A DNA stretch of 64,000 nucleotides, from the NCBI GenBank assembly GCA_032718475.1, contig JAUCBJ010002985.1, positions 1-64,000 on the forward strand, read 5' to 3'. This DNA comes from Nemertoderma westbladi (lineage: Eukaryota; Animalia; Xenacoelomorpha). Position numbers and translations under genes: made by a program. This document shows, one piece after another, positions 35,813-55,740 of the stretch. The number at the start of each line of letters is the position of its first letter. Position 1 is the first letter of the stretch. The notes below the pieces were generated by a model. The model was not told where the DNA came from. It did not search any database and worked only from the letters and a program-made list of their open reading frames with translations.

Positions 35813-36758
35813 GGTAGAGCTTGGGTTAAAAATAATGTGCTTGGCGATTTGGGTGGTCAGTGCTCAATTTGCTGTGGCCCCAGTCATATGTTCTAGAGCG
35901 GTTGAACCAGTCAGTGCATGTAATTCCCTGGGGCCAGAATTTACCATCCTTGTGTCCCTTTTATCCAAGTCGACTTCTACCTTAAAGTTTTTGCAGTTGT
36001 TTGTAATTCTAGTTGTTATTCGATATGCCTCCACATTATGATTATATAGGTATTCAGTGATGTCCTCTTATAGTATGCTTCTTATGAACATCATTGATAA
36101 AGTTTGTCCTTCTTTGTTTCGCTGCTTGGAGGTTTACCTTATTATCTGTTTTGTGTTTGGTGAGGTAGTGGTGTATAAGTTTTGGTGACCCTTTATTATG
36201 GATTGAATGGCCTTCAAATTTTTCCCTGGCTGATTGTGAGTACCTTGGTGCTGTTGGTGAAGGTTGGTGCTGGATAGACCTATGTTGGAGACTTTTTGCC
36301 GGGTTGCATTCATCCTTCTTTGTGTTGTGTCATGGGTGTACACGTGGCGTTTATCACCGCTCTGCTTCAGTGGTGAATTGACTATGTCTCTATGGGTTTT
36401 TTTATTACCTGTTTGTCTCCATGGAGTTCTGTTGTGTATCTCTTCACCTTTGTTGCTAAGATGCTCAAATCTATTGTCTATTGTACGTGGAAGTTGTGGA
36501 TTGATGTTTACTATTTGTGTTTGTCATGTTGGTGTTGATGGTGTTCTTGCTGCTGTTGTTAGGTCTACTTGGTTTAGATGTATTTTGGATCCACTCAGAC
36601 TTGGTACTTTTACTGCGCTGTTGATGCGCTACTGCTGGAGAGTTGTCATGGTATGAATCAAGTGTTATAAGGTCATCTGATTCAGCCTCGTTGTCAACGT
36701 CAGCTGTGACAAGATTAACTGGTAAGAGATTATTTTCATTCATTAGATCAGATACCTT
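35813..36758 (-). pseudogene. LINE ORF1, C-terminal part
   Basis: Low-complexity N/T/S-rich fragments (36471-36743, 36134-36343) directly upstream of ORF2. The frame joins 54957-55076 across the Polinton. Confidence 0.7.
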
Positions 36759-37103
36759 AGTAGTATATGTTTGTATGACACTGCACCAAGGTCACCTATA
36801 GTCCATCATTACCATCCATTTTTAGTACTGCATCCAATCAGAAGCCACCATTTCATCCTTTACCAGTGGTCGTTATTATTTCAACCAATCAGATGACAGC
36901 ATTTCATCCGTAACCATGGTAACTTCTCAAGTTCCCGCTTATTCCGCTAGAGGCGTTATTAGTCACCCAACGCTAGTACTGCATCCAATCACCAACCTTT
37001 ATTTTATAGATGCTAGGGGTGTCTACAGGTAACTTCTACTATTTTTCAAATCGCTATTTTTCAGCAACCAGTATTTTCACCTTCACCAACCTTTATTTTA
37101 CAG
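36759..37103 (+). repeat. Polinton left TIR
   Basis: Reverse complement of 54612-54956; no mismatch found on manual comparison. Confidence 0.97.
36910..36923. promoter_or_regulatory. RFX X-box-like near-palindrome in the TIR, among three CCAAT boxes
   Basis: GTAACCATGGTAAC fits the X-box consensus GTNRCC(N0-3)RGYAAC. CCAATC occurs at ~36834, 36885 and 36985. Mirrored in the right TIR. Confidence 0.45.
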
Positions 37104-37245
37104 GTGTTCAGGTGTCTACACTTAGCATCAGGTAACTTCTACTATTTTTCAAATCGTAATTTATCACCAACCTTTATCTTACAGATGCTAGAGTTGTCTA
37201 CAGGTAACTTCTACTATTTTTCAAATCGCTATTTTTCACCAACCA
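36990..37245. repeat. Subterminal ~85-95-bp repeats (3 copies left, 2 inverted copies right at ~54571-54725)
   Basis: CACCAACCTTTATTTTA...GTGTCTACAGGTAACTTCTACTATTTTTCA is repeated. Confidence 0.85.
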
Positions 37246-37797
37246 ATACATATTCATCTTCGCATAGCCTAACCTCGCGATGCATGGCTAGCTCCCAACC
37301 CATCGCTACTCAATCCACAGCTGTTACCCACCCAACCAACAGCGATGCTTGCCTATCCCTAATGTTATTCACCTTTTCGCCACGTTACCACCACCGCCAC
37401 GCTACCACCACTGTATACTGTATATGGTGACGACGTGGCCATCTACACACAACACACATATATTATATTATATCGATTGCCAACTCCTCGACTGCTGTCG
37501 CCAAACCAACCACCCAGTATGATACATGAAATTCCACCACGTTCCAGCTACGCGTATACGAGCATTAGTGATTATTATTATTACGCAATAATTTTTGTTT
37601 AAACTGCATTTCCCTACCGGCTAATCAACCAATCAATAATCCGAATTTAGGCTATTTCTCAGTTTAAGACCTGTATTATTTTTGAAAATATCTTATATAT
37701 ATAATCTCTTGCTTTAATCACAATTTATCATTTGTAATGGTTTTAGTTTAAAAGTTTTTACTTTGTTTGTTTGATTTACAATAAAATAAATTAAATA

Positions 37798-38241
37798 ATG
37801 TCTTCTGATTCCGATATGGTTATGCCAATAGTAAGGCATTCATTTTTTGCAGAAGATGGTGAAGCCTATATTGTTATTGATTATACAATTTACCGTTGGG
37901 GAGATGATAAATATAAAATTGAGTTTTCTGAAAAAGCCAGGAAAGTTTTAAGCTCAATTGATATTGATGCTTCTGATAATAGTATTCATCTCTTAGATTA
38001 CAACCTGAAAGTTGAGCATGAGGGAAAATTAAGCAACATCTTACTATTATCCATGATAGAGGGGTTAATTGTTATTACACAATACAACGAAGCTGGTGAA
38101 AAGTTTGAAATACAGCTAAATCGCCATAATCCCTACGAAATTATGTCTTTCTTTATTGTAATGATTTCAAAAGAATCCTTTGTCGAAACTGAAGAATCAA
38201 CAGATAATGTTGAATATGTTGATAATATCATTGATTCTTGA
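37798..38241 (+). CDS. Polinton hypothetical acidic protein (147 aa)
   Basis: Clean ORF with the AAATAATG start context shared by other element genes, preceded by CCAAT/TATA-like sequence. No motif recognised. Confidence 0.6.
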   Translation: MSSDSDMVMPIVRHSFFAEDGEAYIVIDYTIYRWGDDKYKIEFSEKARKVLSSIDIDASDNSIHLLDYNLKVEHEGKLSNILLLSMIEGLIVITQYNEAGEKFEIQLNRHNPYEIMSFFIVMISKESFVETEESTDNVEYVDNIIDS

Positions 38242-38403
38242 CTTTTCCCCCTATATTATAAATATTTTATGATTATATATAAAATTTTGATGTTTTTAAA
38301 TAATCGAAAATTGTAGTAGTATAACAGTATACCGTATAACAGATTTGTTTGTTGTTGTTGTGTATTGAGGTAATTATTTTCAATTTACTTTAAAATTTGG
38401 AAA

Positions 38404-38751
38404 ATGGATATTTTAAATGAAAAATGTCCAGTTTGCTATTCTAAGTTATTGCAACAACATCAAGATTATTATAAATGTGAAAATAAACATGCAACTTGCG
38501 TACAATGTATTGTACAATATTCCGAAATGAATAATTATTGTTCTAAAATTTGTCCTATTTGTCGCGCACCCATATCTAAGTTTAATATAAAGTTGGCAAG
38601 ATACCAACCCTATTATTGGAAAGAGCTTCGCAATATAACTTATATTTCTGCGGAAAGTAATGATCCAGGAGATTTATTTACAATATTGGAGAATATTTTT
38701 TATAGAAATGTAGTACGACGGTGTTGCTACTATATTCCTTATTTTTTTTAG
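38404..38751 (+). CDS. C3HC4 RING-finger protein (putative E3 ubiquitin ligase)
   Basis: CPVC-x13-CENKHATCVQC-x14-CPICR. Confidence 0.8.
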   Translation: MDILNEKCPVCYSKLLQQHQDYYKCENKHATCVQCIVQYSEMNNYCSKICPICRAPISKFNIKLARYQPYYWKELRNITYISAESNDPGDLFTILENIFYRNVVRRCCYYIPYFF

Positions 38752-39073
38752 CAGCGAACATAAAAAAATCATTAGCGCGAAATTCTCGGGAAGTGATTTC
38801 CAAACCGCCGATGTTACCTATCATTATTTCGCGTATAAAGATGCTCACCATGCTTGAAATTACATCAGTCTATACTATAATTGGAAATAGCACCTTTTGT
38901 TGCAGCGAGCGTCACATACTGTAGCGGCGTCATATGTTAATTAAATATACAGTACTCTAATATTGTAGTTACCTCAATTATTGTTATATACATAGTAATG
39001 GTGATGGTTTATTGATATTGATATTTATATTATATTATATTGTATTGTTGATATATCTTAATAATAATAATAA

Positions 39074-39754
39074 ATGGCTGACTTTAATTCAGGTCCATAT
39101 AATTTAAACTTTCAAATGGGAACGAGTATGATAATTTCTGGGCCATCTGGTTCTGGAAAGTCAACCTTTGTAAGCAATTTAATTAAACACAAGAATGGTT
39201 GTTTCAACGAAGCCCCCTTGCGAGTATTGTATTGTTACAGGAGCAATCCCCCAACTATTCCGGGTATTACTCACCTTTACAAAGGTTTGCCAGAAAATAT
39301 AGATAGTTTAGTGAATAGTCGAGATTTATTAATTATAGATGATTTATTAACAGAAACTGAGTCCAGTACAGCTTTAACTGTATTGTTTACTAAGGTAGCT
39401 CATCATTCCAATATATTTATTTGTTTTATAACGCAAAACATGTTTTACGGTGGGAAGCATAACCGCACAAGATCAATTAATAGCCATACTTTAGTATTAA
39501 TGAAAAATCCGCGAGACAGTTTATCGGTTTTAAATTTCGCGAAGCAGATGTTACCAGGGCAGACCAAATTTTTAGTTGATTCCTATCAAGATGCGACAAT
39601 TGAACCATTTTCGCATTTCTTAATTGATTTACGACAGGAAACACCCGAACATTTAAGATTTAGATCGGATATATTTCGTAATCATAATTGTTACATTAAA
39701 AATTACATTGACTATAAAAGTAGCGAAAATAATAATAATAATAATGATAAATAA
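39074..39754 (+). CDS. A32/FtsK-like DNA packaging ATPase
   Basis: Walker A GPSGSGKS and Walker B LLIIDDL, followed by HH..I...TQN.F, R.RSINS and MKNPRD as in Polinton ATPases. Confidence 0.93.
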   Translation: MADFNSGPYNLNFQMGTSMIISGPSGSGKSTFVSNLIKHKNGCFNEAPLRVLYCYRSNPPTIPGITHLYKGLPENIDSLVNSRDLLIIDDLLTETESSTALTVLFTKVAHHSNIFICFITQNMFYGGKHNRTRSINSHTLVLMKNPRDSLSVLNFAKQMLPGQTKFLVDSYQDATIEPFSHFLIDLRQETPEHLRFRSDIFRNHNCYIKNYIDYKSSENNNNNNDK

Positions 39755-39791
39755 TTAATATTTTGTAACAATTTTCAATAATGTTGCAACA

Positions 39792-40175
39792 ATGAATAGA
39801 CTTGTGCAGAAATATCGTAACGAACTGGAATTTCTACGCAGCGCTACCCCTCAACAAAGAACTTATTTTATTAACCATACCGCGAGTAACGAATTAATAC
39901 GGCTCATTGTAAATACTGCATTAAATGTTCTAAAAGGTAATGTACAATTGACCCCTCATTCATTTAGAAATATTCGCCGCTATAAGAAGGTATTGAAATC
40001 ACTCAACCGTAAAACAAAAAATATATCAAGTTACAGAAAAAAGTTAAGCAATCAATCTGGAGGCATACTACCGTTTCTAATACCCTTACTCGGCATTGGT
40101 GCGAAATTCGCCGCGAGTGCCGGTGCCGCCGCTGCTGGAGCAGCTATTGCGAAAAAAATTAACCGCGGACGGTAA
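39792..40175 (+). CDS. Basic core protein with adenovirus pX-like C-terminus (conserved Polinton virion protein)
   Basis: LNVLKGNV.L motif and K/R-rich body. QSGG|ILPFLIPLLG resembles an adenain site followed by a hydrophobic helix. Confidence 0.75.
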   Translation: MNRLVQKYRNELEFLRSATPQQRTYFINHTASNELIRLIVNTALNVLKGNVQLTPHSFRNIRRYKKVLKSLNRKTKNISSYRKKLSNQSGGILPFLIPLLGIGAKFAASAGAAAAGAAIAKKINRGR

Positions 40176-40177
40176 TA

Positions 40178-40348
40178 ATGGTTAAAACAGGAGTAACATT
40201 TAGAAAATTATATTTAGTATCGAGTAAACCGTTAGCTACTGATTTAAAACCTCAAGATATACCTAGAGTAAATACTACAAAAAGAAAACCCTTTAAAACA
40301 TCAACTTCAAAGAAAATAATTAAAAAATTTCAGTTGTTCTTACGGTGA
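40178..40348 (+). CDS. 56-aa basic micro-ORF (not in the ORF track)
   Basis: ATG 2 nt after the previous TAA. Translates as MVKTGVTFRKLYLVSSKPLATDLKPQDIPRVNTTKRKPFKTSTSKKIIKKFQLFLR*. Confidence 0.5.
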   Translation: MVKTGVTFRKLYLVSSKPLATDLKPQDIPRVNTTKRKPFKTSTSKKIIKKFQLFLR

Positions 40349-40399
40349 TGCCCTTTATAAGAGATTTGAATATACATATTACTTGTGGTTGTCGAAAAG

Positions 40400-41488
40400 A
40401 TGCCACGCAAGATGAAACCGATTTTAAGCCGAAGCTTAGACAAAAAACTGTTAAGAATTTATTTAGATCCTTCATCCCCCGCGGGACTTGCAAGTGTTGC
40501 AAAATTAGCAAAAGCTGCAAACATCAAACCAGCACAAGCCCAGAAATGGCTGAGCGGGCAAAAGACATACACCCTTCACGCTCCACGTAGACATCATTAT
40601 CCAACATCTAAAATATTTACGGGAGGCTTAAAAGATATATATATGATAGATCTGGTGGATATGCAGCAATATAAATCGCAAAATAATAATTATAACTATA
40701 TATTAACATGTATTGATGCCTTTAGCAGGCTTGCTTTTGCCTATGGTATGAAAACAAAAAAGGGTATTGAAATTATTAGTATATTGCAAAAAATATTTCA
40801 GAAAGGAAAACCAAACAGAATCGCGACTGATCAAGGTTCTGAGTTTCTAAATAAATCTGTAAGGAAATATTTAGATACGTTAGGTATACAGTATTACGTA
40901 ATGTACTCTGTGAATAAGGCGGCTATTGTCGAGAGATTCAATAGAACATTAAAAACAAAGATGTTCAAAATTTTTACGCAACGGGGAAATAATATTTGGA
41001 TAAAAATTTTACCGAAGCTCATTTATGCTTATAATAGGTCATATCATAGGACAATACAAATGACTCCCATTGAAGTTAATAAATTTAATGAAACTGAATT
41101 AATGAATAGATTATATGGGAAATATAGACAGATTAATCATAAGAAAATAAAATTTAAAGTTGGAGATACAGTACGATTATCTATCGCTCGTACTGCTTTT
41201 GCTAAAGGCTATCGAGAACAATGGACACGTGAATTATTTATTATTCATCGTGTCAGGTTGGATAGAGTACCAACGGTAATGTTCGATATTAAGGACAGCG
41301 CTAGAGCTATAATAAATGGCTCATTTTATTCTCACGAACTCCAAAAGGTCCACCCGAATAGTAATATTTATCTACCAATTGACAAAAATATTGGCAAACT
41401 TAAAGAACGTGTACGCAATGGGAAGAAAGAATATTTAGTCCGATTCATCGGATCCAAGAAACAGTCGTGGGTACAGCATATTCAATAA
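40400..41488 (+). CDS. int: Retroviral-like (rve) DDE integrase with C-terminal chromodomain-like region
   Basis: YTLH, IDLVD, IDAFSR, TDQGSEF and VERFNRTLK (intact D-D-E triad). C-terminal EYLVRFIG...SWV. First ATG is at 40400; the track starts at GTG 40385. Confidence 0.95.
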   Translation: MPRKMKPILSRSLDKKLLRIYLDPSSPAGLASVAKLAKAANIKPAQAQKWLSGQKTYTLHAPRRHHYPTSKIFTGGLKDIYMIDLVDMQQYKSQNNNYNYILTCIDAFSRLAFAYGMKTKKGIEIISILQKIFQKGKPNRIATDQGSEFLNKSVRKYLDTLGIQYYVMYSVNKAAIVERFNRTLKTKMFKIFTQRGNNIWIKILPKLIYAYNRSYHRTIQMTPIEVNKFNETELMNRLYGKYRQINHKKIKFKVGDTVRLSIARTAFAKGYREQWTRELFIIHRVRLDRVPTVMFDIKDSARAIINGSFYSHELQKVHPNSNIYLPIDKNIGKLKERVRNGKKEYLVRFIGSKKQSWVQHIQ

Positions 41489-41734
41489 GCTTAGGTTTAT
41501 ACTGTATATTAATTCATTTTGGTCGCATATGACCGTAATTAATCAATATTAACTCGAATGATATTACTATATCTATAGTTCATCCGCTTTAAATAAAGCC
41601 AGTAAAATATTGATCCCTCGCATATACTGTAGAAGATGCGACAATGAATGTGGTCACAGATGTCTATAATTTAACATTATACTGTACTGTATGTACAATG
41701 GAGTCAAGTAGAGAGAGCTTAAATAATAATAATA

Positions 41735-42607
41735 ATGGCCACAGATACATATATCACTCTACTTTCAGATAGCTCATTAAACACTTACCCCAATAATAAT
41801 CCTAGTGAGTTTACTGTTGATTTAGCCAAAGAATTATATATTGGTCCAAACGCTAAAATTGGGCTTGCCGAGCTACAATACCAAGCAACATACAGTAATA
41901 TTACGCTGCAAACTCAAATCTCGCTGTCAATCGGGGTAGATGCAAAAGATGCCAAATTATATAGTTTATTTCCTGGTATGCATAGCTCTATTCAAGTGAT
42001 TATTGATGATATAAATAAACTGTTTAATTCTGAAGCGAAATATAGAGATTTCGAATTCATTTTTAATACAAATAATTCTAGAATTAAATTTAAATTTCCT
42101 AAAAAGTTGAAAAAAATACAATTAAGTCTACGTGGTGATTTAATACAAATTCTAGGCTTAAAACCGTTATTGGATCAGAATCATCCGGATATTCCGAATT
42201 GGGATATATACAGTACCACTACAGTAGATGAATTAAGCAATATAGAACAGCCGATATTAATTTTAAATTATAGCGGACCAAAAATTTCGGAAATTGGCAT
42301 TTTAGATTTTCCAGCTCCCACGAATATAACACGTAATAAAGACACTATCTTTATATATACAGATATTATTAAGAGCTCATTTGTTGGTGACGCTTTAGCT
42401 CCGCTCTTAAGAACCTGCCCTTTAACGCAATTAAATCGAAAATATATTAATCACGAATACGAGAGCATTTGCTATTACCCATTGTTGAATAAAAAACTAA
42501 AAACAATCTTAATTACTTTACGTGACGGACAAGGTGAATTAATTAATTTTAGCGGAGGTCGCACTGTTATAACACTTAAGTTAATACGCGGTGGGGATGA
42601 TGGATGA
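41735..42607 (+). CDS. Minor capsid protein (penton) 1
   Basis: YITLLSDSS..YP.N..SEF...L, GLAELQY, IFIYTDII....VGD..APLLR, YYPL and LRD..G..INF..G.TVITL. Confidence 0.88.
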   Translation: MATDTYITLLSDSSLNTYPNNNPSEFTVDLAKELYIGPNAKIGLAELQYQATYSNITLQTQISLSIGVDAKDAKLYSLFPGMHSSIQVIIDDINKLFNSEAKYRDFEFIFNTNNSRIKFKFPKKLKKIQLSLRGDLIQILGLKPLLDQNHPDIPNWDIYSTTTVDELSNIEQPILILNYSGPKISEIGILDFPAPTNITRNKDTIFIYTDIIKSSFVGDALAPLLRTCPLTQLNRKYINHEYESICYYPLLNKKLKTILITLRDGQGELINFSGGRTVITLKLIRGGDDG

Positions 42608-43447
42608 ATTCTACGTTAGACTACTGAGTAACTCCTGTCCAATTGATTTTCCCCGCAATAGCGCTAGTAATTATCAGATCAATTTCCATGGCGCCTTACC
42701 TATAAACCCAAACGAAAACTGGGTGGTAGGTATAAAAAGTATATTTTACTTAGCAACGTTGCATGTATAACCATGTAACAATGTAGAGAATGTTATTTTA
42801 TTAAAAAAGGGAAAAAAAATTTTGAGGATACACTTCCATCCGGTTTGTTCTACAGTATCAATGACATTATAGAGTATTTTAACACTGGGGCGTTGAAAGA
42901 TAAATTACAAATAGTTGAAAATACTCAGCAAAATAGATTGCAATTTATTTTAGGGAAAACTGTGCGAGAGTTATTTATAGGTCAACAATTAGCCTATTAT
43001 TTTGGAATTACTGAAAATAATCTCGGCGCGAATTTAAATCCAAATTTTAAAATTATTTTGAAAACGAAAAATAATATAAAGGGTTATTTAATAAAGGTTA
43101 TCGGAAATGGAGAAAAAGCTTACCAGATGGTATTTTTATGCCCTCAACCACCCAATTCTATTCCAGAACCTAAGTCGAACATGTACGTGACTACTAATAT
43201 AATTGAAAATCAATATATTAATGACTTTGGTTTAGCTTTACTTCGTCGTGTTGCGATACCTGATGACGTGAAATATGGTAGCGTAATAAATAAAGAATTT
43301 GTCAAGGATACAATTCATTATATCCCTGTAAAAAAATCATATAAGATAACATACATTTATATTGAAATAACAGACAAAGAAGGAAAAGACTTGAATTTTG
43401 AATACGGGACAACATCTATTACATTACACTTTAAACGAATAAATTAA
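42600..43447 (+). pseudogene. Minor capsid protein (penton) 2, disrupted
   Basis: ATG 42600 gives MDEFYVRLLSNS...FP.N.ASNY...WVVGIKSIFY, then TAA at 42768-42770. It continues in another frame (LPSGLFYSINDII...MYVTTNII...LLRRV...HYIPV...LNFEYGTTSITLHFKR). Confidence 0.82.
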
Positions 43448-43448
43448 A

Positions 43449-44009
43449 ATGGATTCTGATTTATTTCAAAGATACAGTAAACCTCAATATGGTGGTGCAG
43501 ACTCTAATCTTGCTATTTTTAAAGGTGGTAGAAGTACGAGAGGCTCGACGCAAGTTCCTGTTTTTCGAGGTGGTTCATATATTGACCCTTACGGTCAACA
43601 AATTGGCGCATTTGGTCCAAACTTAAAACAACGTCGTTTTCAATGTTATCCTAGAGGTATGAGGACAAATCAACACGGAGAAGGTATATTTACAGACGCT
43701 TTATCGACATTGAAAAAATTTGGTAAGCCATTAGCTAAAAAAGTTTTACAAAAAGCTTTACCATTTACCACAAAATTTATGAGACAACACGTAATACCAA
43801 AAGGTAAGCGGGTCTTACATCAGCAGGCTAATACGGTTATTAATAAAGCATTAAATAAAATGAAACCGTCAACAAGGTCAGTTGTAGAAAAAGTTTATAG
43901 AGATTTAAAGCGACCCGCTAGACCAATGTCTATGAACATACATCATCGACGTAGTAAAAAGAGAAATATAAAAGGCAAACTGAAACACTGCGAAAAAAGT
44001 ATTTTTTAA
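43449..44009 (+). CDS. Basic core protein with amphipathic helix (adenovirus pVI/pVII-like)
   Basis: Candidate cleavage motifs QYGG, FKGG, FRGG and QHGEG, followed by amphipathic IFTDALSTLKKFGKPLAKKVL. Lies directly upstream of the major capsid gene. Confidence 0.7.
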   Translation: MDSDLFQRYSKPQYGGADSNLAIFKGGRSTRGSTQVPVFRGGSYIDPYGQQIGAFGPNLKQRRFQCYPRGMRTNQHGEGIFTDALSTLKKFGKPLAKKVLQKALPFTTKFMRQHVIPKGKRVLHQQANTVINKALNKMKPSTRSVVEKVYRDLKRPARPMSMNIHHRRSKKRNIKGKLKHCEKSIF

Positions 44010-44011
44010 TA

Positions 44012-45262
44012 ATGTCAATTATTAAGGAATTAGATTTATTTTCTACATAGACTGAATTTAAAGCAAAGCATTATGAAACAATTTACCCTGTATCTAATCT
44101 CAGAAGTGAGTCTAGGGAAGTCATGTTCCTTGTACCGAGATCCAATGAATTCTATACAAAACTGCAAGATGCGTTATTAATTATAAAATGTACTGTACGG
44201 TGGGATAGACGACTTGAAAATTCCCATATATATATGCTGAATTACCCCGCTGAAACTATGTGGAGTGATATTAAAATAGACCTTAATGAGAAGCAGGTTG
44301 AAAATAGCAATAACCATTATTTCTACAAGTCGTACTTATCCAATTTATTATTTACAACTTACGAGGATAAAAATGGGCTACTGGGTGCGGGTGGCTTTCA
44401 TCAGCCTTTATCTGAACACGGAAATGAAATTGATCCCGACGCGCATCCTATTGGCGATGCCTTTAGTAAACAAATGCAATTTGTAAGTGGATTGACGATT
44501 GATTTTGATACTGAAAGCAAAATAATACAACCCAGGTATGATTTAAGAATGCATTTTAGAAAAGTATCAAATTCGTTTATTTTTAAAATCACTCCAAACG
44601 CAAACGCGGTGAGAAATCTTCGGCTAGAATTAGATGAAATAAAGATCCTAATCCCTAGAATGGAGGTTAATCCGGTAATAGAAAGCAGTCACCTAAAAGG
44701 TTTAGAGAGTTACGATATTGAATATCAATTCCAAAAAAAGGAGGTTACAACATTTACTATTCCCCCTCAAACCACAAATTACACCCAAACAAGCATATTT
44801 GATGGTAAAAAACCCAAATTAGTTATTATCGGCTTCATAACAAATAACGCTTATTCGGGAGAATTAATTAGCAATCCCTTGAAATTTGAACATTTTAACC
44901 TTAGACGCGCGGAACTGATTGTAGACGGTCTTCCAGTAGGTAGTGTAATATACGAGCCTAATTTTACAGATGGAACATATATTTTTGAGTATACTCAATT
45001 AATGAAGAACATTAATACATATATTAACGGTTATGGAGGTAATAATATAGACCATGAAACCTACTTAGGTAATTGCCCCCTCCTATCCTGGGACTTAACC
45101 GCCGACGGCTATGTTAGAGATCCGCAACCGTCGATATATACTAACGGCCAATTAAAATTAAGATTTGCCGAACCGTTGGTTGAAACCATAAATGTAATTG
45201 TTTTTAATATTTATGATCAATCATTAAGTTTAAATAGCAGGAAAGAAATACATATCGATTAA
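44012..45262 (+). pseudogene. Major capsid protein (double jelly-roll, hexon-like) with premature TAG at codon 13
   Basis: ATG 44012 gives MSIIKELDLFST*TEF..., with the conserved ELDLF N-terminus, in frame with the 379-aa ORF 44123-45262 (YKSYL..LL, P.LVIIGF, AYSG....NPLKFEHFNL, WDLT.D, L.LRFAEPL). Confidence 0.88.
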
Positions 45263-45264
45263 GT

Positions 45265-45717
45265 ATGTTATCTACAGAGGACCTTGATATGTTTCCAGTG
45301 GGTGGTCACTATTTGGGCGCGTTTCCAGCTAATAAATTACCTAAATTTGATAATAATAAGCGGAGAGATTATGGGTTAATAGTAAATACCGATAAAGAGC
45401 ATCTACCCGGGATTCATTGGATTGCAATATATATACGAGATAATGAGGCTGAATTATTTGATTCATTCGGATCAAAATATCCAAACAGATGCATCGAAAA
45501 ATGGCTTGAGAAAAATTCCGCAAGATGGCGTACTACTCGCAAACAATTTCAAGACCCAAGGAGGACCACATGCGGTCTATACTGTCTTTATTACTTGGTA
45601 AATCGAATTCACACAAACTATCCAATGAGTGCGTTTACAAATAATGTGGAAATAAATGAAATAATATTATATAAATGGCTTGTTAATTATTATAAAATAA
45701 ACCAACAAGCGTTGTAA
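45265..45717 (+). CDS. Adenain-like cysteine (maturation) protease
   Basis: GAFPAN, NTD...PGIHWIA, FDSFG and Q.....TCGLYC (His/Asp/Gln/Cys present). Confidence 0.93.
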   Translation: MLSTEDLDMFPVGGHYLGAFPANKLPKFDNNKRRDYGLIVNTDKEHLPGIHWIAIYIRDNEAELFDSFGSKYPNRCIEKWLEKNSARWRTTRKQFQDPRRTTCGLYCLYYLVNRIHTNYPMSAFTNNVEINEIILYKWLVNYYKINQQAL

Positions 45718-45748
45718 TTAATCATTTAGCTTTTGTTTATCAGTTAAA

Positions 45749-46351
45749 ATGGATAATATTATTTTTGTTGATTTTCAATATTATAAGATAGACAATAAAG
45801 AGTATCCGGTAGTATTTAAAGAATTTGCTATATTCGATTCTAATTACACCAAAACTAATGTAAAGACGTTTTTAATTAAAGGCCCACCTAATATTAAGTT
45901 ATCAGCTTTAGATGTAGCTCACGTAAACAATTTACGAGATATGACTTCTCATTTGCCCTGGGACTACGGTGACATTTCGCAAGATGACTTTAAAAAATAC
46001 ATGAAGAGACATTTAAAATATAAAAAAAATATACATGTATTTGGGTTGATGAAGCAGGCAATATTAGTTTCCCAACTCGATGTTCTCGCGCCAAATTCGG
46101 TGGAGAAATTGGGAATATATAAGCAATATCATGATTATTTAACCCCTTGTCGCTTCCACGATCAATTTACTACAGTAGAAAATAAATGTGCGTTCCACTT
46201 AAACATAAGGGATAACTGTCTGCGATACTGCTCAGCAAAACGCGTTGGGGGGTATGAGATGCTACACTTTTTCATGAGAAAGCGTTTAACTGCGACTGAT
46301 GATGATAAACAGAAAGAAATAACTGCAGTGGAAGATGTACTCATACAGTAG
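45749..46351 (+). CDS. DEDD/DnaQ-like exonuclease-fold protein with C-terminal Cys/His cluster
   Basis: FVDFQ...VFKEFAI, LPWDYGDI, VFG..K and C.FH...C resemble a recurrent Polinton accessory family. The catalytic residues look incomplete. Confidence 0.55.
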   Translation: MDNIIFVDFQYYKIDNKEYPVVFKEFAIFDSNYTKTNVKTFLIKGPPNIKLSALDVAHVNNLRDMTSHLPWDYGDISQDDFKKYMKRHLKYKKNIHVFGLMKQAILVSQLDVLAPNSVEKLGIYKQYHDYLTPCRFHDQFTTVENKCAFHLNIRDNCLRYCSAKRVGGYEMLHFFMRKRLTATDDDKQKEITAVEDVLIQ

Positions 46352-46756
46352 GTTTAACTGCGATGGAAGATGTACTCTTACAGTAGGTTTACTCTAAGCT
46401 TGTAATGTGATGGGATATAATATAATTTTATTTTGGTGATGATCTTGATGTTAATATAAAAATATAATAAAATATAATTTTTTTACAACAAGTTCTCTAA
46501 AAAAGAGTCAATTGCGCTAGGTTAACCATACACATTTAACAATATGACGTAGACGTAACATGTACAGTAAGTATTCTCGATATCATTCTAATATAGATGT
46601 ACTGGTATTGCGAAACATCCTATACATCGCAAACTAATAACACATACAGTAGTTGACTAGTAATATTAGTCAGAAATGCAACATAAACTGTATAGGATGT
46701 AGTGTTAACCTGTTGGTACTGGTACTGATAAATTCAATAATTTATTATAGGCCTAA

Positions 46757-47530
46757 CCACAACTGTCATCCGCTTTATCAGTACCGGTAGTGTTTTACTC
46801 TTCCAACACTGTAGTCACAGTCTACTGGTATCAGTACAGCAGTAATCTGAAGCAATAGCATACTGCTGTCATGATCCGGATTACACGCAGGGGTCTCACA
46901 TATAGGGATTAGATCACCTACCCAAACAATACAGTACTGCTGTACTGTCGCTGTTGTTGTAACAGCATAGTCAGATAGAGCATACTGATTTCCTTTGATT
47001 AGCATTGTACTGCAGTACCAGTACCGCAGTATTAATGTAACAGTACCTGTAGTAACAAACTAATCCATTGTATACAATATCGTGAGCCAGTTACAATCAG
47101 ATGTGTACGCAGTCAGCCACACTGCGGAGATGCTGTCAACCTCGCAGCTCCTATCCACAACTGTCATCCACTTTATCAGTACAGCAGTAATCTGATGCAA
47201 TAGCATTTGTTTTTTTTCACCTATAAGGATACTGCTGTCTACCCGAACCTTGATTAGCATACTGCTGTCATAACCTAGAAGGCACGCGTGGCTCTCACAT
47301 ATAGGGATTAGATCCCCTACCCAAACAATACAGTACTGCAGTACTGTCACTGTTGTTGTTGTAACAGTATAGTCAGATACAACATGTTGATTTCCTTTTA
47401 TTAGCATTGTACCGCAGTACCGGTACCACAGTATTAATGTAATAGTACCCGCAGTAACAAACTAAACCACTGTATACAATATCGTGAGCCAGTTACAATC
47501 AGATGTGCGCGCGGTCAACCTCGCAGCCAC
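46757..47530. repeat. Diverged ~400-bp tandem duplication inside the Polinton
   Basis: Blocks such as ACAACTGTCATCCRCTTTATCAGTAC (~46759 and ~47157) and TGTATACAATATCGTGAGCCAGTTACAATCAGATGTG (~47069 and ~47471) recur at a ~400-bp offset. Confidence 0.85.
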
Positions 47531-47655
47531 CCTTGCGAGCAGCATCGCTGCCAGCCTCGCAGCCAGCCAGCCTCGCGGCACGCAGTTAGCCTCGCAGCCA
47601 ACCAGTCAGCCAGCCAGCCACACAGCTACTGCCGGCTAGGCACGCAGTCAGCCTG
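47519..47655. repeat. GC-rich simple repeat (CCTCGCAGCC/CAGC units)
   Basis: Multiple cctcgcagcc and cagccagc units in otherwise AT-rich DNA. Confidence 0.6.
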
Positions 47656-48281
47656 TGAGAGTCATACTTATTCAAACGAGGTTAGTTTTCCCTAACTACC
47701 GATAGATTGATTGAAAAATAATAATGTTTAATTTTCACCTTCTAATCACCAATATATTCTACACCTAAAGTCACAACACTAAACATTAAGAAATAATTAA
47801 CCAGTTTACTAAATATAGGGTAATAAATGTGAAATTTGCTAGGTGAACACATTAAAGTACATTTACCGGTATGAAAGCAGCAAATGACTACGGTATTATT
47901 TATTCTTATTTTGCAATTATTAAAAATTTCAGGTTCATATATAACTTGAAGTTATTAGCACATTATCAAAGACAACATAAAACCCGGTATTGTTTATCAA
48001 TAACCTATAGACTACAGACTTAATACTAAAAATATAAGTACATAAATTAACAGATTTTAAAATCAAATTAATACTAGTTTTATCAAATATATGCTTTTTT
48101 ACTTTTTGGAAATTATACTTACTACCTAATAATGTAATACGACCATTTTTAAATATTAATAATGTGGCACCAAATATTTTATATATAAACTGATTTGGTT
48201 TGAGTATGTGTTTACCAGATAATTGATTTTTTTAATTCTTTCAAATTAATCGCTGACACTTGCTGGCAACTTACATTCTTA

Positions 48282-51200
48282 TTAACTATCTGATAGTTCA
48301 TTGTTTGGTTCCCGATAAATAGGTATATTGTTTTTCTTTATCGGTTTTTCAACCTTTGTTTGATAGTGACCCCAGGGAAGCGAATGATTTTTATTAACCC
48401 AATAAAGTTTATCGTCAAATGCGCTGAGAGCAAACGTATCTCATGCTACAGTGTACACTTTGTGTAATTGACTCTGAAATTGATGCGTTTCCTTGGAAAT
48501 TTCTTCGTTATGTTTATATGCTCTTAAATAATCTTTGTGGCAAATATTTTTATCCACAACAGCTCTTGTTATTCCTTTCGCCCGTCGTATGTTAGATTCA
48601 TTCCATTCCAAAATTGAATATAATTTTGGTCTTAAAAATACTGCTTCCTTAATCTCTCGTGAGCACAACTCGTCTTTACAGTAATAGAGTCTGGATTTAT
48701 TTTTATCGCTGTAGAGAGGGTGATCCTTGGGGTAATTGGATGTATCTAGAATATTATTTTTAATTAAGGCTTTTAAAAAATTATTCTGCGATGTATTATA
48801 GTAACAACCTATTAAAGAGTCCGTATCTGATGCTACAATTTCAATTCGACAGTTTAATTCTTTCTCAATAGGTAGCAATTTATTGTAGTACAACTCATAC
48901 ATATCCAATTTAGCCAAGTCCAAGACAGTACTACCTACATAGACCGGCTTATCTAGTGTTACAGAGTCTTTCACTAATAAGTGACCCGATAAGGAATCAT
49001 TATAAATCATGAAATTTTCGTGATTTATACGTTTGACTAATAAATCGCATTTCTCTTTGCTATTAGCGATACGAAAGTTACATCGATCTCTTATCTTCTC
49101 TATCGTTTTTCCAAATAACGAATTATTCAGAAGCTTTGCAACAGCTGTTTCAATGGAACTTTTTGCTATTCGCCTTTGATTAATATTAAAATCTATATAG
49201 GGTTTAAATACAAAGTCTTGATGGAAAGAATACAATTTATGGAGCTTAGTAACAATTAAACCTTGTTTTATATAAAATTTTAACAGTTTCAAATTTACAT
49301 GATAGAATTCCTTATCGAATTGTGTCAACATAAGTTTTGGTGCACACATCTTATACTTGCTATTAGTAGATCTTTGTTTACATACATGATTATATTGTTC
49401 CCTCATATATGGTGAAAGCATTGTCTCATTTATACTTAAATGTTCTGGGGCTAAGGGTAGTTCTAATGTACGATCATGAATATCTTTGGGATATTTCAAA
49501 TCGCAAATTAAGAAAAACCCAATATCCCCTTCAGTATCAAGATTTGTTAAATAGTTTATTAGTTCTTCTGGAGCGGCATTCTCTAAATATGTAACGTTGA
49601 CTTGTTCAAAACCTGAAACAGGTAGCTTTTTACTTAAATTACCAGAATACAAGGAATTAAAATCTATATTGAAAATATGACACTCTTCCTTGCTTGGATC
49701 ATAATTATCAGTATCTGGTATATTTGATTCTATGTAATGCTTTCGACAGAATGAAACCCCTCCTCTAATAGATGCTTCAAAATCTCTATATGTTTGGTAA
49801 TCTTTTATTAATGCTAACTTACATTTATTGTATTTCAGAGCGCAATCATAAGTGAAAGCTGCGATACTACAATAATAAACTACTTCTAATTCGTAGTTTT
49901 GTCTACATACTCTCCTAAAGTTCTCAAATATATCAGCGAGGAGACAAACATCGAGTTTTAAGTATGCTAAAAGATAATCTTTGAGATTCGAGCAGTCAAA
50001 CTGACTCCATGATGTGTTGGCAAAACTATATTCCTCGGGTGTACAGGTATTTTGTGTTAATTTACTATAAAATTTGTCTATTGATGGTAATTTCGAATCA
50101 TTGAATTTATTTAAATCTGTCAGATACTCGTAGGGAAATATACCTTTTTGTTTAATTGTTGCATTATTTAAATTTGGATAAAAATATTTCATTTGCTGTT
50201 CAGTAATTGGTAGTACTGATGTTATATCCTCGCTGTCTATATCCTTTGTTGAACAATCAACTAAAGTACTTAGGGAAAAGGATAAAAATTGATATGTGTC
50301 TAAGACACGTAGCTCGATCTTAGTTTTTTCATCTTTCACTGGTATATGCATGCTTAGTGAAATATACCTTTCAGAATTTTTAGGGATCACCTTTATATCC
50401 CAATCGGAATATTTATTGTTAGTAAAACCAACTTGTAAAAGAAAATGCAAATCATAGTGATTGCAGTTGTGTGCAGCGAGTATATACATGTGTCGTTTCA
50501 ACGATAAAGAGCGGTTACATGCGTTACAAGCGGCCGCTATATAGTTACCAGTAATATGTGAGTGATGTTTGTTTTTCTCAGATTTATCCTTAAATAAAAC
50601 ATTGCAATAAAAGCAAGTTTTAGCTTTCCAAAAACTTAACTTATCTACATCATTAAGTATCATCTTTTCGTGTGTATGATCTTCCGACCACTTATATAAT
50701 TGGGTGATGTCATTATATACAGAGTCTAAAAAGTCTTGAATACAGTTGTTGTCGATTGTTTTTGTAAAGGTCTTCAAATAAAATTTTGGTGGATTGATTA
50801 ATTCGGCACTAGGGACAATTAAATAACTTACAGCGCATGGAATATGATTCTGAATAAATTTACTGTTGCTGGATGGCTCCAAAATAGATTCTATGTCAAA
50901 ATATATTACAAACAATGCTGGTAATGTTCTGTCTAAATTTCTAAAGCTAATGTGAGTTCTTTTTTCAGATGGTAGCTTCTCAACTTGACTTTTTCCTCGA
51001 TAACAAGCAAGACGGTGACGTTCTAGAACATCCTTGCTGTAGGACTGAGACAAACACCGTTCACAATATTTCCTACATCCAATATGCTTACCTCTTGTAT
51101 TCAACATGCGATTCAAGTTAGTTATGCAAACATAATGTGATTGTTTACTCGTATTCTTATTTTTTACAAGTAATATATTCAATAACTCTTTATCTGGAGT

Positions 51201-52148
51201 GATTTTACTAAATGGTGCCTGTCTTAATATAGATACTCAATTGTTGTCGTAGAGTAATAAATTAATTATATATGCTGAATTCTGTTTTTCAAAAAGTTTA
51301 ATTGTAAGCGGCCATTCTGTTGGATAATCTTTGTTCCCGTTGTCAAAAATAAAATGACTCATATAATTTTTGTACTGCGAAGTACGATGTTTGTTGTTTT
51401 TCACTTTGCTGCTAAACTTTGTGGCTATAATAGCCCATTTGAAACAGTCATTATCAGCCGTTTGTATATTTATAACACATTTTTTAACTGATAGAGCCTT
51501 AGGTAACTCCATATAACCGTGACCTTTATATTCCAGTGACCTACACTTAGATTCAGCTACTTTAATTTCCACTCTTAATAAAGATTTAACGCGCCATCCT
51601 GAGCCACGAGTGTTAAATATGGCTATTTTTTGCATTAATTTTTCTAGTACATACTCAAACCATGTGTCAAAACTTTCATGTGAATCTACGGTATTAACTG
51701 CACCACCTGAAGAACTAAAATAGAAAGTTTCTTCTTGGTCTCCCTCTGAAAAATGTGATCGATACATGAGTATATTCACACCTAACCAGGGTCTAAGTAC
51801 ATTCATTTCGCTAAGTTTTCCTAATAATAACGTTTTGATGTGAGGTAGAATATGAACTATCGATGAATGAATATCAGGAAAATCTTCATCATTCGGAAGA
51901 TTGTAAACATTTCTTTCAACATCTTCTAAACACTCTTTATTACAAGTAGGACAAGTTTTTTCATACACGCAAAACTTCATTTCTTTACATCCCGTAGTTG
52001 ATTCATGTCGTTTGCATATTTCTTCACGTGAACATTTCACTCGACAATTAAAACAATTGTATTCTTGAAAATGTGATTTCAAGTGAGTTAAATAATTTCG
52101 TTTAGAAATTTGAAGAGGACAAAATGGACATTTCAATTGTTTATCCAT
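48282..52148 (-). pseudogene. polB: Protein-primed family B DNA polymerase (~1288 codons) with two in-frame TGA
   Basis: Exo motifs YFDIES, AHN...YDLHFL and YLKLDV. Pol motifs DFNSLY, KLLNNSLFGKT and SDTDS. One frame throughout, with TGA at 51237-51239 and 48441-48443. The conserved ALSAFDDK...LPWGHY follows the second TGA; TAA at 48282-48284. Confidence 0.93.
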
Positions 52149-52692
52149 CTCTTTATTATCCTAAAAACAATTTAAAATTAATATGAATATTGTTATATAT
52201 ATAATCAAAAAAAATTCATAAGCTACTCAACATAAATAAAATATAATATCTAAACTTTAATTAATTTAATATTTTCAGAATGAGCTCGATTGAATCAGTT
52301 GAGCTCTTTATATATATTTCAAGTTTCTACTTATACCAACCAATCATAAATAACAGTTACATTGGAAACTAATATCATAAATAAAGTTGCTTTTACAACT
52401 GAATTCTTTTTAATAAAATCAAGTCTAAACCAAGATGTGCATAATACGTTTTTAATTTTCATTAATAAAGTAGGTTTTACATGCTAATGTTTTATTATGG
52501 TGGTGTAATCTCACGCATTTACATGGGAATGTTTTTATACCTAATCCTGTGCTCACATTAAACTATCACCAATATTTACTCAATAAAGTCACCTTTACAT
52601 GCAAATACTTTATAATAATCATGCTTTGTGTTAAAAAGTTACCTTTACTAGTTAGTGTGAAACTGAAAAAAAAGTCTCTAGTTAATAATAAA

Positions 52693-53736
52693 TCAATCTG
52701 ATACTGCTTTTATATGTTCCTTATTGTAATCTGCTACCTCTTCACTTGCTTTTGTAACTTTTATTTTCTTTGTAGGTATAGAATCATTGTTGGGAATGGA
52801 AGATGTTTGAGATGTAGATCTGCGCTTTCTATCACTCGATGTCTCTTCGATGTATGTCTTTGGATTAAATGTAGATGAAACTACTTCTGGAAATGACTTA
52901 TTAACCTTAAACTTCCAAGTTGGTTGATATAGAATCGCGAAACCGTCTGCTATATCAGTTGATGAAACCTTTAACATCATATCGTAGAGAAACTCTATAT
53001 GAGGTATGTCTTTATCGTAATGTAACTGTAAATATTTGCTTTCCTTGTCTGTAATAATTACTTTTTTTTCTTGTACATTTATTTTTACTTTAAGTCGGTT
53101 AGATAAAGCTTTATCGCCCGTATCTAGCTCTGAAAAGACACCTTCGTTACTAATTTCATAATTCCATTCATACCACAATGAATTTACTTCCGATGCTGTT
53201 AAGTTAAACCCATTATAATACCTAAGACCAATAGCATCAGAATATCTAGCTGAAATCTCCCATAGTCCCATATAAGTCGTTCCTTTATATTTGCTTACAA
53301 ATCCAACAAAAGATGGGTTGGTTAAATTAACAACAGAACACTGATTTATTATTTCGAGTGGTGGTGATAACAATTCTAATATTTCTGTCTTACTCTGAAG
53401 CAATAAATTAATGAGTGATTTGTTTAGAATTTGACATTTGCCTTGCATCTGAATATATACGTTTTCAGTAATAACACAGGTGGAAATATTTAACTTTCCT
53501 CTTGTAAATTCTATATTAGGATAAATATTACCTCTTGAAACTGGTGATTCCTTTTGTCGGTTGATTAATATTTCTAAGACGTCTAGAAGGTAGAGTGTAT
53601 CCTGGTAAGAGAAGCACGTTGTTACATTGCTATCGCTTGAGTGTAATATAAAGTACTTGCCATAAACAATACTACAGGTATATTTATTACATATAAATTT
53701 CCAAGTATTGCTTGAAGTTTTTTTAAATAAATCCAT
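52693..53736 (-). CDS. Polinton accessory protein with a PC4-like ssDNA-binding motif (347 aa from ATG 53736)
   Basis: Long ORF. VSKYKGTTYMGLWE...NGFNLTASEVNSL resembles the PC4 signature. Basic NLS-like tail (RKRR, KKIK). Confidence 0.6.
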   Translation of the reverse strand: MDLFKKTSSNTWKFICNKYTCSIVYGKYFILHSSDSNVTTCFSYQDTLYLLDVLEILINRQKESPVSRGNIYPNIEFTRGKLNISTCVITENVYIQMQGKCQILNKSLINLLLQSKTEILELLSPPLEIINQCSVVNLTNPSFVGFVSKYKGTTYMGLWEISARYSDAIGLRYYNGFNLTASEVNSLWYEWNYEISNEGVFSELDTGDKALSNRLKVKINVQEKKVIITDKESKYLQLHYDKDIPHIEFLYDMMLKVSSTDIADGFAILYQPTWKFKVNKSFPEVVSSTFNPKTYIEETSSDRKRRSTSQTSSIPNNDSIPTKKIKVTKASEEVADYNKEHIKAVSD

Positions 53737-54611
53737 AATTAGAATGAAAACTATTTTGAAAAATAAAAAAACTAAATAAATGATTATTAGATTGTAAAAC
53801 TTCTGTTTATATGGTTGCTTTAATACAACAGAGTGACTTACAGTGAGGAATATAGTAGCTTCGTGTAACATATGCAACGTGTACAGCTAAATTTATTACA
53901 TTAGCGTGAGTTAGAGAGTGAAATAGCAGTAACATGTAACAGATGCAACGTGATCAATGCTAGCCCTGTCATTCTAACTTATTCAACTTAGTTGTTCGAG
54001 CAGTCACATCGATAAAAGAAATCGATTATTATTAATAGTCGAATTACTGTATTCTATGCTATAGTAATTATGTTAAGGAACTAGAAGCTATTTGTAAACA
54101 TCTGCTACCAGTGATGAAGATGAAGAATTCAATGACTATGGTATAACTCAGATATTTATTGCCTTTTTCTCTCGAGGTCCGATGGAAGAGTGTGTGGAGA
54201 ATTGCGGTAAAACACTAGGGTACAGCAACGTAGCCAAGTAGCGAGTGGGTGGATAGGAAATCATTGAGTTGACAACAATCAATCAATAACAAACAACACT
54301 AAAGAGAGGGAGAGAAAAAAGTGAAAGGAAGAGTAACCATCATAGCTACGGTAGGTATACGAATAGATGGTTAGGCTACGTACTGTACAGTACAATATCA
54401 TATCATATCATCGATTGAATATTTTGTTATAACTCGGATATTTATCGCCTTTTTCTCTCGAGGTTGGGTGGAAGAGTGAGTGGTGAATTGTGAGGAGTTA
54501 TAACGGTCCCGAGTTCGAACCCAGTTGAATATTTTGTTATCTGAAAAATTGCAAAATTAATTTAGTTACTGGTGAAAAATAGTAGAAGTTACCTGTAGAC
54601 ACCTCTAGCAT

Positions 54612-54956
54612 CTGTAAAATAAAGGTTGGTGAAGGTGAAAATACTGGTTGCTGAAAAATAGCGATTTGAAAAATAGTAGAAGTTACCTGTAGACACCCCT
54701 AGCATCTATAAAATAAAGGTTGGTGATTGGATGCAGTACTAGCGTTGGGTGACTAATAACGCCTCTAGCGGAATAAGCGGGAACTTGAGAAGTTACCATG
54801 GTTACGGATGAAATGCTGTCATCTGATTGGTTGAAATAATAACGACCACTGGTAAAGGATGAAATGGTGGCTTCTGATTGGATGCAGTACTAAAAATGGA
54901 TGGTAATGATGGACTATAGGTGACCTTGGTGCAGTGTCATACAAACATATACTACT
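54612..54956 (-). repeat. Polinton right TIR
   Basis: Reverse complement of 36759-37103. Confidence 0.97.
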
Positions 54957-55740
54957 TACCTTCTGTTCCAGGATTGAACGGCAGTGCCTCTCGTGCTGTA
55001 ATTCATCTTCGAGATTCGTTGATCTTTGTAGCATTTGTTCATGATTAGATTCATATTTACTGAGTCTGGATTGCATGGCTGTAATAATGCTGAGTAGTTC
55101 ATTTCTCAGGGAGTCTGTTGATGAGTTCGATGGGCTGTCATTTACTTCTTCATTTACTTCTTAGTTTCTTGCAAGATGTTGTGTACACTTTGTCAAAGTT
55201 CCATGTATATAGTTTAAAGATATCCACAGCCAGTTCGTTGGTGGTTGTACGGGATCTCAGGTGCATAGCTGTTGAGTCAACAGCGGACATGAGAAGTTTG
55301 ACCTTCATGAACAGATCATCTCGTATGGCAAGAATCTTAGAGACATTAATGCTTCTCCTGTTGTAATGCTTCTCTTTTTGGCCGCTGCATTATGCTATCC
55401 AGGTCATAGTAGTAATGTTCCAAGGGGTCGTCAGTATCTTTGGTGTATGTTTCGTTGCGAATTCCGGTTGACAGGCGCGGACCTAAGTATGTAATGGTCT
55501 CTAGGGTGGAGTCTACTTTCAGCTTTGCTATTGCTCGTTCTGCTTCTAGTCCTGATCCAGAAGTGAGGTCCACAGATTCTTATCTTAGTGCGTGTTTGGA
55601 TACAGTTTGGTTACGTGTGGTTGGGTATAACCCATCTGCTGTGAATTTAACAGACTCTATTACATTGTGCATCCATTTTCTTGATGCCAGACTGTCAGAG
55701 TGTATTGGTGGCACAAGGTCACTGAGGACTACATGTTGAG
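54957..55740 (-). pseudogene. LINE ORF1, N-terminal part (coiled-coil), separated from the rest by the Polinton
   Basis: ...LEDELQHERHCRSILEQKV ends in the TSD and continues as SDLMNENNLLP at 36752. The 5' boundary is unresolved. Confidence 0.75.

What the first reader, a model, noticed from the sequence alone, without database searches (positions are those of the whole stretch)
36759..54956. Complete virus-like Polinton with identical TIRs but broken PolB, major capsid and penton 2: a candidate defective element mobilised in trans
Seen: the 345-bp TIRs and 6-bp TSD show no mismatch. PolB has two in-frame TGA, the major capsid has a TAG, and penton 2 has a stop plus frameshift. Integrase, ATPase, protease, penton 1 and the core proteins are intact. 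Known: TIRs are homogenised during protein-primed replication, so they date the insertion. Inference: nonsense changes are a small minority of neutral substitutions, so four lesions should usually come with some TIR divergence. The element may have been defective already when it integrated, i.e. a helper-dependent or defective-interfering genome using PolB and capsid from another copy. CpG hypermutation or chance could also explain the pattern.
Basis: partly seen in the sequence, partly recalled or inferred. Interest (0 to 1): 0.75.

Follow-up and report, generated by a model that had tools for sequence, protein, structure and literature searches.

The report
Dead Polinton copy, likely re-copied
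This is a full-length but broken copy of a virus-like mobile element whose family is abundant in related samples; its damage looks like ordinary decay inside a chromosome, and two changes shared by both end repeats suggest, without proving it, that it was copied to this site after it broke, likely with enzymes from another copy.

Summary
Observation confirmed: an 18.2-kb Polinton/Maverick with exact 345-bp TIRs, a 6-bp target duplication, two in-frame TGA in PolB, a TAG in the capsid gene and a stop plus frameshift in penton 2. Contigs from other samples hold the family at about 100-150 times flank depth. Three of the four stops are not seen in them; the fourth stop and the frameshift are unresolved. 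Two stops come from short multi-letter events, not point changes. Two more frameshifts break an overlooked TBP-like gene. Differences private to this copy (about 0.24% of sites) look unselected (18 amino-acid-changing, 3 silent) and are biased to C>T and CpG, whereas family polymorphisms are mostly silent (3:17). A different clue does lean its way: two private changes sit in both TIR arms, which favours homogenisation after decay (likelihood ratio about 6-40 under the flat prior, model-dependent). Re-copying in trans 0.40, plain decay here 0.33, TIR conversion in place 0.20. Mobile PolB-less polintons are already reported. The scan's index held no matching earlier finding.

The parts
36753..36758 (.). 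left target-site duplication (6 bp)
36759..37103 (+). left TIR, 345 bp, starts AGTAGT, internally repetitive; differs from family contigs at 36856, and at 37080-37081 by mirror of 54634-54635
37798..38241 (+). unknown acidic ORF, 147 aa
   Evidence: no Pfam hit
38404..38751 (+). RING-finger-like ORF
   Evidence: weak Pfam zf-RING hits below cut-off
39074..39754 (+). packaging ATPase, open
   Evidence: Walker A/B motifs; Pox_A32 E=0.001, below cut-off
39792..40175 (+). basic core-like protein (PW-like by position and composition; label inferred)
   Evidence: weak Adeno_PX hit E=0.014
40400..41488 (+). retroviral-type integrase, open, D-D-E motifs present
   Evidence: Pfam rve E=8e-11; motifs
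41735..42607 (+). penton 1 (minor capsid, label inferred from N-terminal motif and position; fold not tested), open
   Evidence: paralogous to penton 2
42597..43447 (+). penton 2, broken: stop at 42768-42770 within a short multi-letter event (about 42762-42776), and a separate frameshift in the A/G run 42803-42819
43449..44009 (+). basic core-like protein (PZ-like; label inferred), open
44012..45262 (+). double jelly-roll major capsid protein, broken by a TAG at 44048-44050 at a short multi-letter event
   Evidence: model pLDDT 92 matches iridovirus, PBCV-1 and virophage capsids
45265..45717 (+). adenain-like cysteine protease, open
   Evidence: Pfam Peptidase_C5 E=1.8e-6; His/Asp/Cys motifs
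45749..46351 (+). 200-aa ORF, DEDD-nuclease-like by eye only
   Evidence: no Pfam hit
46320..47650 (.). internal repeat region (35-bp tandem, about 400-bp duplication), length-variable among family contigs
47742..48301 (-). TBP-like cargo gene, split by two frameshifts (near 48227 and 47954)
   Evidence: Pfam TBP E=4.8e-4 and 0.027 on two pieces, both below cut-off; PDB TBP E=0.028; indel rows
48282..52148 (-). protein-primed family B polymerase (about 1288 codons) with TGA at 51237-51239 (codon 304, between the conserved Cys235 and His338 of the vOTU-like domain) and at 48441-48443 (codon 1236, before a conserved C-terminal block)
52693..53736 (-). unknown ORF, 347 aa
   Evidence: no Pfam hit, no usable Atlas hit
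54612..54956 (-). right TIR, identical to the left; differs from family contigs at 54634-54635
54957..54962 (.). right target-site duplication

Best explanation
This is a dead, full-length copy of a high-copy Polinton family whose private changes look unselected, and it was likely re-copied into this site after much of that decay, with the polymerase probably supplied by another copy. Shown: the anatomy, the lesions, the absence of three of four stops from other samples' copies, and neutral-like, C>T/CpG-biased private changes at about 0.24% of sites. Inferred: a mother copy decayed in a chromosome; it was then replicated by protein-primed synthesis, which would make the two ends identical and copy one arm's private changes to both; it was integrated with a 6-bp duplication by its own or another copy's integrase. 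Under this model at least one PolB stop probably came before the copying (87-92%), so PolB would have come in trans. Capsids need not be involved in a move within one nucleus.
For: Rows at 36856 and 54634-54635 differ from 95-100% of family depth in runs X1, X2 and X3 (two samples), lie inside the exact TIR, and are therefore in both arms. A change made after insertion would hit one arm. There is no excess of silent or non-coding private changes that would show a long functional lineage: 0 silent against 12 amino-acid-changing in the stretches that long X4 contigs cover. About 0.8 shared TIR events are expected under this model, and 2 or more has P=0.20. Likelihood ratio against plain decay: 41 (two events) or 13 (one) with a flat prior; 13 or 6 if part of the decay came after; about 8 if TIR repeats mutate ten times faster during element replication. 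Helpers are plentiful: single long family contigs in X3 lie at about 100-150 times flank depth. Polintons lacking polB are reported to stay mobile (bioRxiv 10.1101/2025.02.07.637071, passages read).
Against: Only two TIR events, taken from a table showing 40 of 961 rows under an unknown ranking, with contig depth as a crude share. Their mirror positions are not listed, and the TIR is internally repetitive, so misplaced contigs are possible. None of the runs is the window's individual: flank contigs differ by 1.0-1.8%. Family polymorphisms are under strong purifying selection (3:17), so most spread is by functional copies; PMC8097293 (passages) argues the same for vertebrate Mavericks. No mother or sister copy could be sought. 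Conversion in place predicts the same pattern. With no shared event counted the ratio is only about 2.4. That protein-primed replication equalises the ends is recalled from adenovirus work; search found no paper to cite.
Confidence: 0.4

Rival explanations
1. Plain decay at this site. An intact copy inserted here recently, all lesions arose afterwards, the TIRs escaped by chance, and the two TIR variants were inherited from a functional subfamily not sampled in these runs.
For: This is the default fate: 96% of vertebrate Maverick loci are degraded (PMC8097293, passages). Zero TIR mismatches has P 0.14-0.19; the number of point nonsense changes (1-2) fits the 1.1-1.7 expected. Neutral-like and CpG-biased private changes fit equally well.
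Against: It needs both no mismatch and two lineage-private TIR changes, with no matching excess of silent private changes in the genes (likelihood ratio 6-41 against).
Confidence: 0.33
2. Decay at this site, followed by homogenisation of the two arms in place (gene conversion or hairpin repair between the inverted repeats 17.5 kb apart).
For: It predicts exactly the same TIR pattern as re-copying: no mismatch and about 0.8 shared private events. It needs no helper.
Against: One tract of at least 225 bp, or two tracts, would be needed within a short time (0.24% decay). No rate for Polinton TIRs turned up in the listing of search; conversion between LTRs is recalled only.
Confidence: 0.2
3. Assembly or polishing error: random errors mimic neutral decay and the arms were equalised by the assembler.
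For: Two of the frameshifts lie in homopolymer runs (42803-42819 and near 48227). No raw reads of this individual were available.
Against: The six-fold C/G-to-T/A bias and CpG excess and the multi-letter events are not typical sequencing errors. Polishing with reads from many copies would push the TIRs towards the family letters, not away from them.
Confidence: 0.05
4. Recoding: the stops are read through, edited or reassigned, and the penton-2 frameshift is programmed, so the element is functional.
For: The penton-2 A/G run contains slippery-type heptamers in the right register (seen; motif class recalled), and no indel row there reached 40%.
Against: Three of the four stops are not seen in family contigs. 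All three stop codons end normal genes of the element, and 0 of 45 homologues have Trp or Cys at either PolB break. Two family contigs carry one more letter at the run.
Confidence: 0.02

Closest known systems
Mavericks/Polintons of animals (polintoviruses, adintoviruses), as defined for vertebrates in PMC8097293
   Same: About 18 kb (vertebrate intact mean 16.9 kb), TIRs with (AGT)2 ends, 6-bp TSD, pPolB, integrase, ATPase, protease, major and minor capsid, PW/PZ-like ORFs; broken copies are the rule.
   Different: A divergent family: best PolB homologue 36% identical, best capsid homologues about 27-28% over the full length. Two penton paralogues, and RING, nuclease-like and TBP-like cargo. 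Copy depth is far above the vertebrate median of eight.
polB-lacking but mobile polintons of butterflies (bioRxiv 10.1101/2025.02.07.637071)
   Same: TIR-flanked elements without a working polymerase gene that seem to have kept moving, which implies supply in trans.
   Different: There polB is lost or replaced and several insertions share the defect. Here the gene is present with stops, and only one insertion is known.
Non-autonomous Polintons (Kapitonov and Jurka 2006; recalled, not read)
   Same: Intact cis ends, dependence on a helper.
   Different: As recalled, those are internally deleted multi-copy families; this element is full length.
Endogenous retroviruses copied by complementation in trans (as summarised in PMC8097293, passage read)
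   Same: Neutral evolution of a gene is taken as the sign of copying by complementation.
   Different: That inference rests on lesions shared among many insertions, which could not be tested here.

Membership tests
Polinton/Maverick | Long TIRs with (AGT)2 or (AG)3 ends | tested here: met
   345-bp exact TIR, AGTAGT/ACTACT ends
Polinton/Maverick | 6-bp target-site duplication | tested here: met
   TACCTT on both sides
Polinton/Maverick | Protein-primed family B polymerase | tested here: met
   128 homologues, many with PF03175; Exo and Pol A/B/C motifs; invariant Cys/His pair as described for vOTU. No direct Pfam hit for the window's pieces. Gene broken.
Polinton/Maverick | Retroviral-type DDE integrase | tested here: met
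   Pfam rve E=8e-11, motifs
Polinton/Maverick | Double jelly-roll major capsid | tested here: met
   AlphaFold2 with 106 sequences, pLDDT 92; Foldseek E=4e-18 to iridovirus and 7e-17 to PBCV-1 capsids. Gene broken.
Polinton/Maverick | A32-like packaging ATPase and adenain-like protease | tested here: met
   Peptidase_C5 E=1.8e-6; Walker motifs; Pox_A32 only E=0.001, below cut-off
Polinton/Maverick | Single jelly-roll minor capsid (penton) | tested here: inconclusive
   Two paralogous ORFs in the expected place; no Pfam hit; fold not modelled
Intact (potentially active) Maverick sensu PMC8097293 | All core ORFs open | tested here: not met
   PolB, capsid and penton 2 are broken
Non-autonomous element mobilised in trans | Intact cis ends with dead trans functions | tested here: met
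Non-autonomous element mobilised in trans | Same defects at independent insertion sites | not testable with these tools
   No genome held; contigs of other samples are too short to link lesions to sites, and three of four stops are not seen there
Defective-interfering viral genome | Large deletion or rearrangement, amplified beside the helper | tested here: not met
   Full-length; lesions not seen at frequency in family contigs; spectrum fits chromosomal decay
Defective-interfering viral genome | Interference with helper replication | not testable with these tools
   No data

The most novel reading that the evidence does not exclude
A full-length Polinton that had already died by slow chromosomal decay (polymerase, capsid, penton and a TBP-like cargo gene all broken) was re-copied to a new site by proteins of intact relatives, which reset its TIRs to identity. 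Perfect TIRs would then date only the last move, dead copies would be freeloaders within the family, and changes private to a copy but shared by both arms would be a general sequence marker of such re-mobilisation.
Probability: 0.38. Interest if true: 0.58.

Novelty: new member of a known kind. Interest (0 to 1): 0.4.

Why it matters
If re-copying in trans is right, TIR identity cannot be used as an age clock for Polintons, and families with hundreds of defective copies, which PMC8097293 calls perplexing for axolotl and tuatara, get a testable explanation: look for lesions shared across sites and for private changes shared by both arms. If plain decay is right, this is an ordinary young fossil of an active family. 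In either case the family is divergent and abundant, and it carries a TBP-like gene that I did not find described for animal Polintons in one search (4 papers, listing only, none on animal Polintons).

Tried and rejected
No whole genome is held, so sister copies could not be collected; the rest of the window holds no second piece of the element. Scans of viral contigs with the capsid and PolB found no relative; TIR patterns found nothing in viral or metagenome contigs. No RNA holder was listed with certainty (X4 is only guessed to be RNA). The PolB stop at 48441-48443 could not be resolved: it is not among the 40 of 961 rows shown and lies outside. No empty-site joint is among the 15 of 61 joints shown, which decides nothing about presence of this insertion in other individuals. 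The apparent clustering of private changes in the capsid and integrase genes was set aside, because it follows the stretches covered by long X4 contigs and so probably reflects row ranking. A natural split of terminal protein and polymerase, as described for a coral polinton, was rejected because the first stop lies between the invariant Cys and His. An alternative genetic code, selenocysteine and A-to-I editing were rejected. The single-sequence capsid model was useless (pLDDT 34). A search for longer relatives of the TBP-like piece found none; the 347-aa ORF had no Atlas hit. A script pattern for the endonuclease VII insert did not match, so no Polinton subgroup is assigned. Paper searches returned nothing. 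Passages of the two nematode preprints and one mosaicism preprint held nothing on trans-mobilisation. bioRxiv supplements were not available and no supplements were read; tables of TIR identity there could bear on novelty.
Full report
Anatomy. The element spans 36759-54956 (18,198 bp). The TIRs match exactly for 345 bp, begin AGTAGT and are flanked by the same six bases on both sides. It encodes an rve integrase (Pfam E=8e-11), an ATPase with Walker motifs, an adenain-like protease (E=1.8e-6), two paralogous penton-like ORFs, two basic core-like ORFs, a major capsid protein and a protein-primed PolB. The capsid piece after the stop, modelled with 106 sequences, is a confident double jelly roll that matches iridovirus, PBCV-1 and virophage capsids. 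PolB has 128 homologues, best 36% identical; the named ones are from insects. The host is not identified; satellites and a retroelement in the flanks and these homologues suggest an invertebrate animal (inference).

Lesions. Read with X at the breaks, PolB is one 1288-codon frame, and 92 and 91 of 120 homologues align across the two breaks. The first break lies between a Cys and a His that are invariant in 45 of 45 homologues, the pair described as the vOTU catalytic dyad (10.1101/2024.03.18.585575, passages); the second cuts off a conserved C-terminal block. All three stop codons end normal genes here, and no homologue has Trp or Cys at the breaks, so recoding is unlikely.

The family elsewhere. 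No genome is held. Six of seven listed runs hold part of the element; I laid four (X1 and X2 are one sample, X3 another study, X4 another organism label). None is the window's individual: flank contigs differ by 1.0-1.8%. Single long family contigs in X3 lie at about 100-150 times flank depth; this is a rough sign of high copy number, not a count. At the first PolB stop (51239) essentially all depth in 4 of 4 runs reads another letter. At the capsid stop, contigs of X2 and X3 end loose at 44047-44049 and no single-letter row appears; at the penton-2 stop there are loose ends in X1 and X2 and a cluster of seven letter rows with a net gap in X2 and X3. These two stops are thus short multi-letter events not seen in those copies. 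The two TBP-like frameshifts match indel rows at 80-100% of depth. The second PolB stop was not shown, and the penton-2 frameshift is unresolved: two contigs carry one more letter, but no row reached 40%.

What kind of change. One search shows 40 of 961 rows: 8 in flanks, 3 in TIRs, 1 at a stop, 28 interior. With one more this gives 29 near-fixed interior differences: 18 amino-acid-changing, 3 silent, 8 classed non-coding (one of these lies in the TBP-like frame). Neutral expectation is 21-31% silent, so 3 of 21 is compatible with no selection (P 0.10-0.31). One search lists all 30 rows at 40% or more in 42700-44150: 7 at the penton-2 break (dropped), 3 near-fixed and 20 polymorphic, the last being 3 changing and 17 silent. 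The contrast is significant (P=0.003 in that stretch, 7e-6 overall; 0.009-0.02 when borderline rows are moved). The family therefore spreads under purifying selection while this copy's own changes escaped it. Of the 29, 15 are C/G-to-T/A against 5 the other way (six-fold per site, P=1e-4), and 6 of the 15 are at CpG (P=0.02). This is what residence in a chromosome gives (inference), not a replicating defective-interfering genome. The ranking of rows is unknown and may favour conserved sites.

Are identical TIRs surprising? In 5749 bases covered by long X4 contigs there are 14 near-fixed substitutions: 0.24% (0.13-0.41%). That predicts 1.7 mismatches between the arms; P(0) is 0.19, or 0.14-0.17 with indels, and 1.1-1.7 nonsense point changes are expected against 1-2 seen.

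The remaining clue. Rows at 36856 and 54634-54635 lie inside the exact TIR and differ from 95-100% of family depth in X1, X2 and X3. Since the arms are identical, each change is in both. A change after insertion hits one arm, so these either were inherited from a functional lineage or were equalised after decay. The lack of silent private changes leaves little room for the first. A simple Poisson model with a flat prior gives a ratio of 41 (two events) or 13 (one) for homogenisation after all decay, 13 or 6 after part of it, about 8 if TIR repeats mutate ten times faster in replication, and 2.4 with no event counted; log priors give larger values. I discount these for model risk: two events, crude shares, internal repeats, other individuals. 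If homogenisation came with re-copying, at least one PolB stop probably predates it (87-92%), so PolB came in trans. Conversion between the arms in place predicts the same and cannot be told apart from one copy.

Comparison. It meets the tested Polinton/Maverick features and fails 'intact' (PMC8097293, passages: 96% of vertebrate loci degraded; hundreds of defective copies in some genomes unexplained). Polintons that lack polB yet remain mobile are reported in butterflies (10.1101/2025.02.07.637071, passages), so mobilisation in trans would not be a new kind of thing. Non-autonomous Polintons and adenovirus end homogenisation are recalled, not read. The scan's index gave no matching earlier finding (one unrelated mini-Maverick note was listed and not used).

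Verdict. Observation confirmed; interpretation partly supported, for a different reason than given. Re-copying in trans 0.40, plain decay here 0.33, conversion in place 0.20, assembly error 0.05, recoding 0.02. New member of a known kind; interest 0.4.

Noticed in passing
window 47742-48301 (-): TBP-like cargo gene directly downstream of PolB, two TBP repeats on separate pieces (weak Pfam and PDB hits); broken here by two frameshifts that family contigs mostly lack. A viral TBP in an animal Polinton was not found in one paper search.
   Followed up: partly
window 42803-42819: The penton-2 frameshift lies in an A/G run with slippery-type heptamers; no indel row reached 40% although two contigs carry one more letter. 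A family-wide programmed frameshift is unlikely but not excluded.
   Followed up: partly
   Followed up: no
window 42762-42776, 44047-44050, 47954, 51043-51045, 54634-54635: Several private changes are multi-letter events, some next to short repeats or a hairpin, which hints at template-switch or end-joining repair.
   Followed up: partly
window 52693-53736 (-), 45749-46351 (+), 38404-38751 (+): Accessory ORFs: a 347-aa unknown, a nuclease-like 200-aa ORF and a RING-finger-like ORF.
   Followed up: partly
window 48432-48475: Contigs in X2 and X3 show a strand-switch joint across this stretch, which holds a short palindrome and spans the second PolB stop.
   Followed up: no
window 7793-31810 and 19206-22847: A 30-bp satellite of about 800 copies interrupted by a GC-rich retroelement with an open 1213-codon reverse transcriptase frame; further satellites at 2550-3972 and 58103-63197 and RT remnants at 61393-62843.
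   Followed up: no
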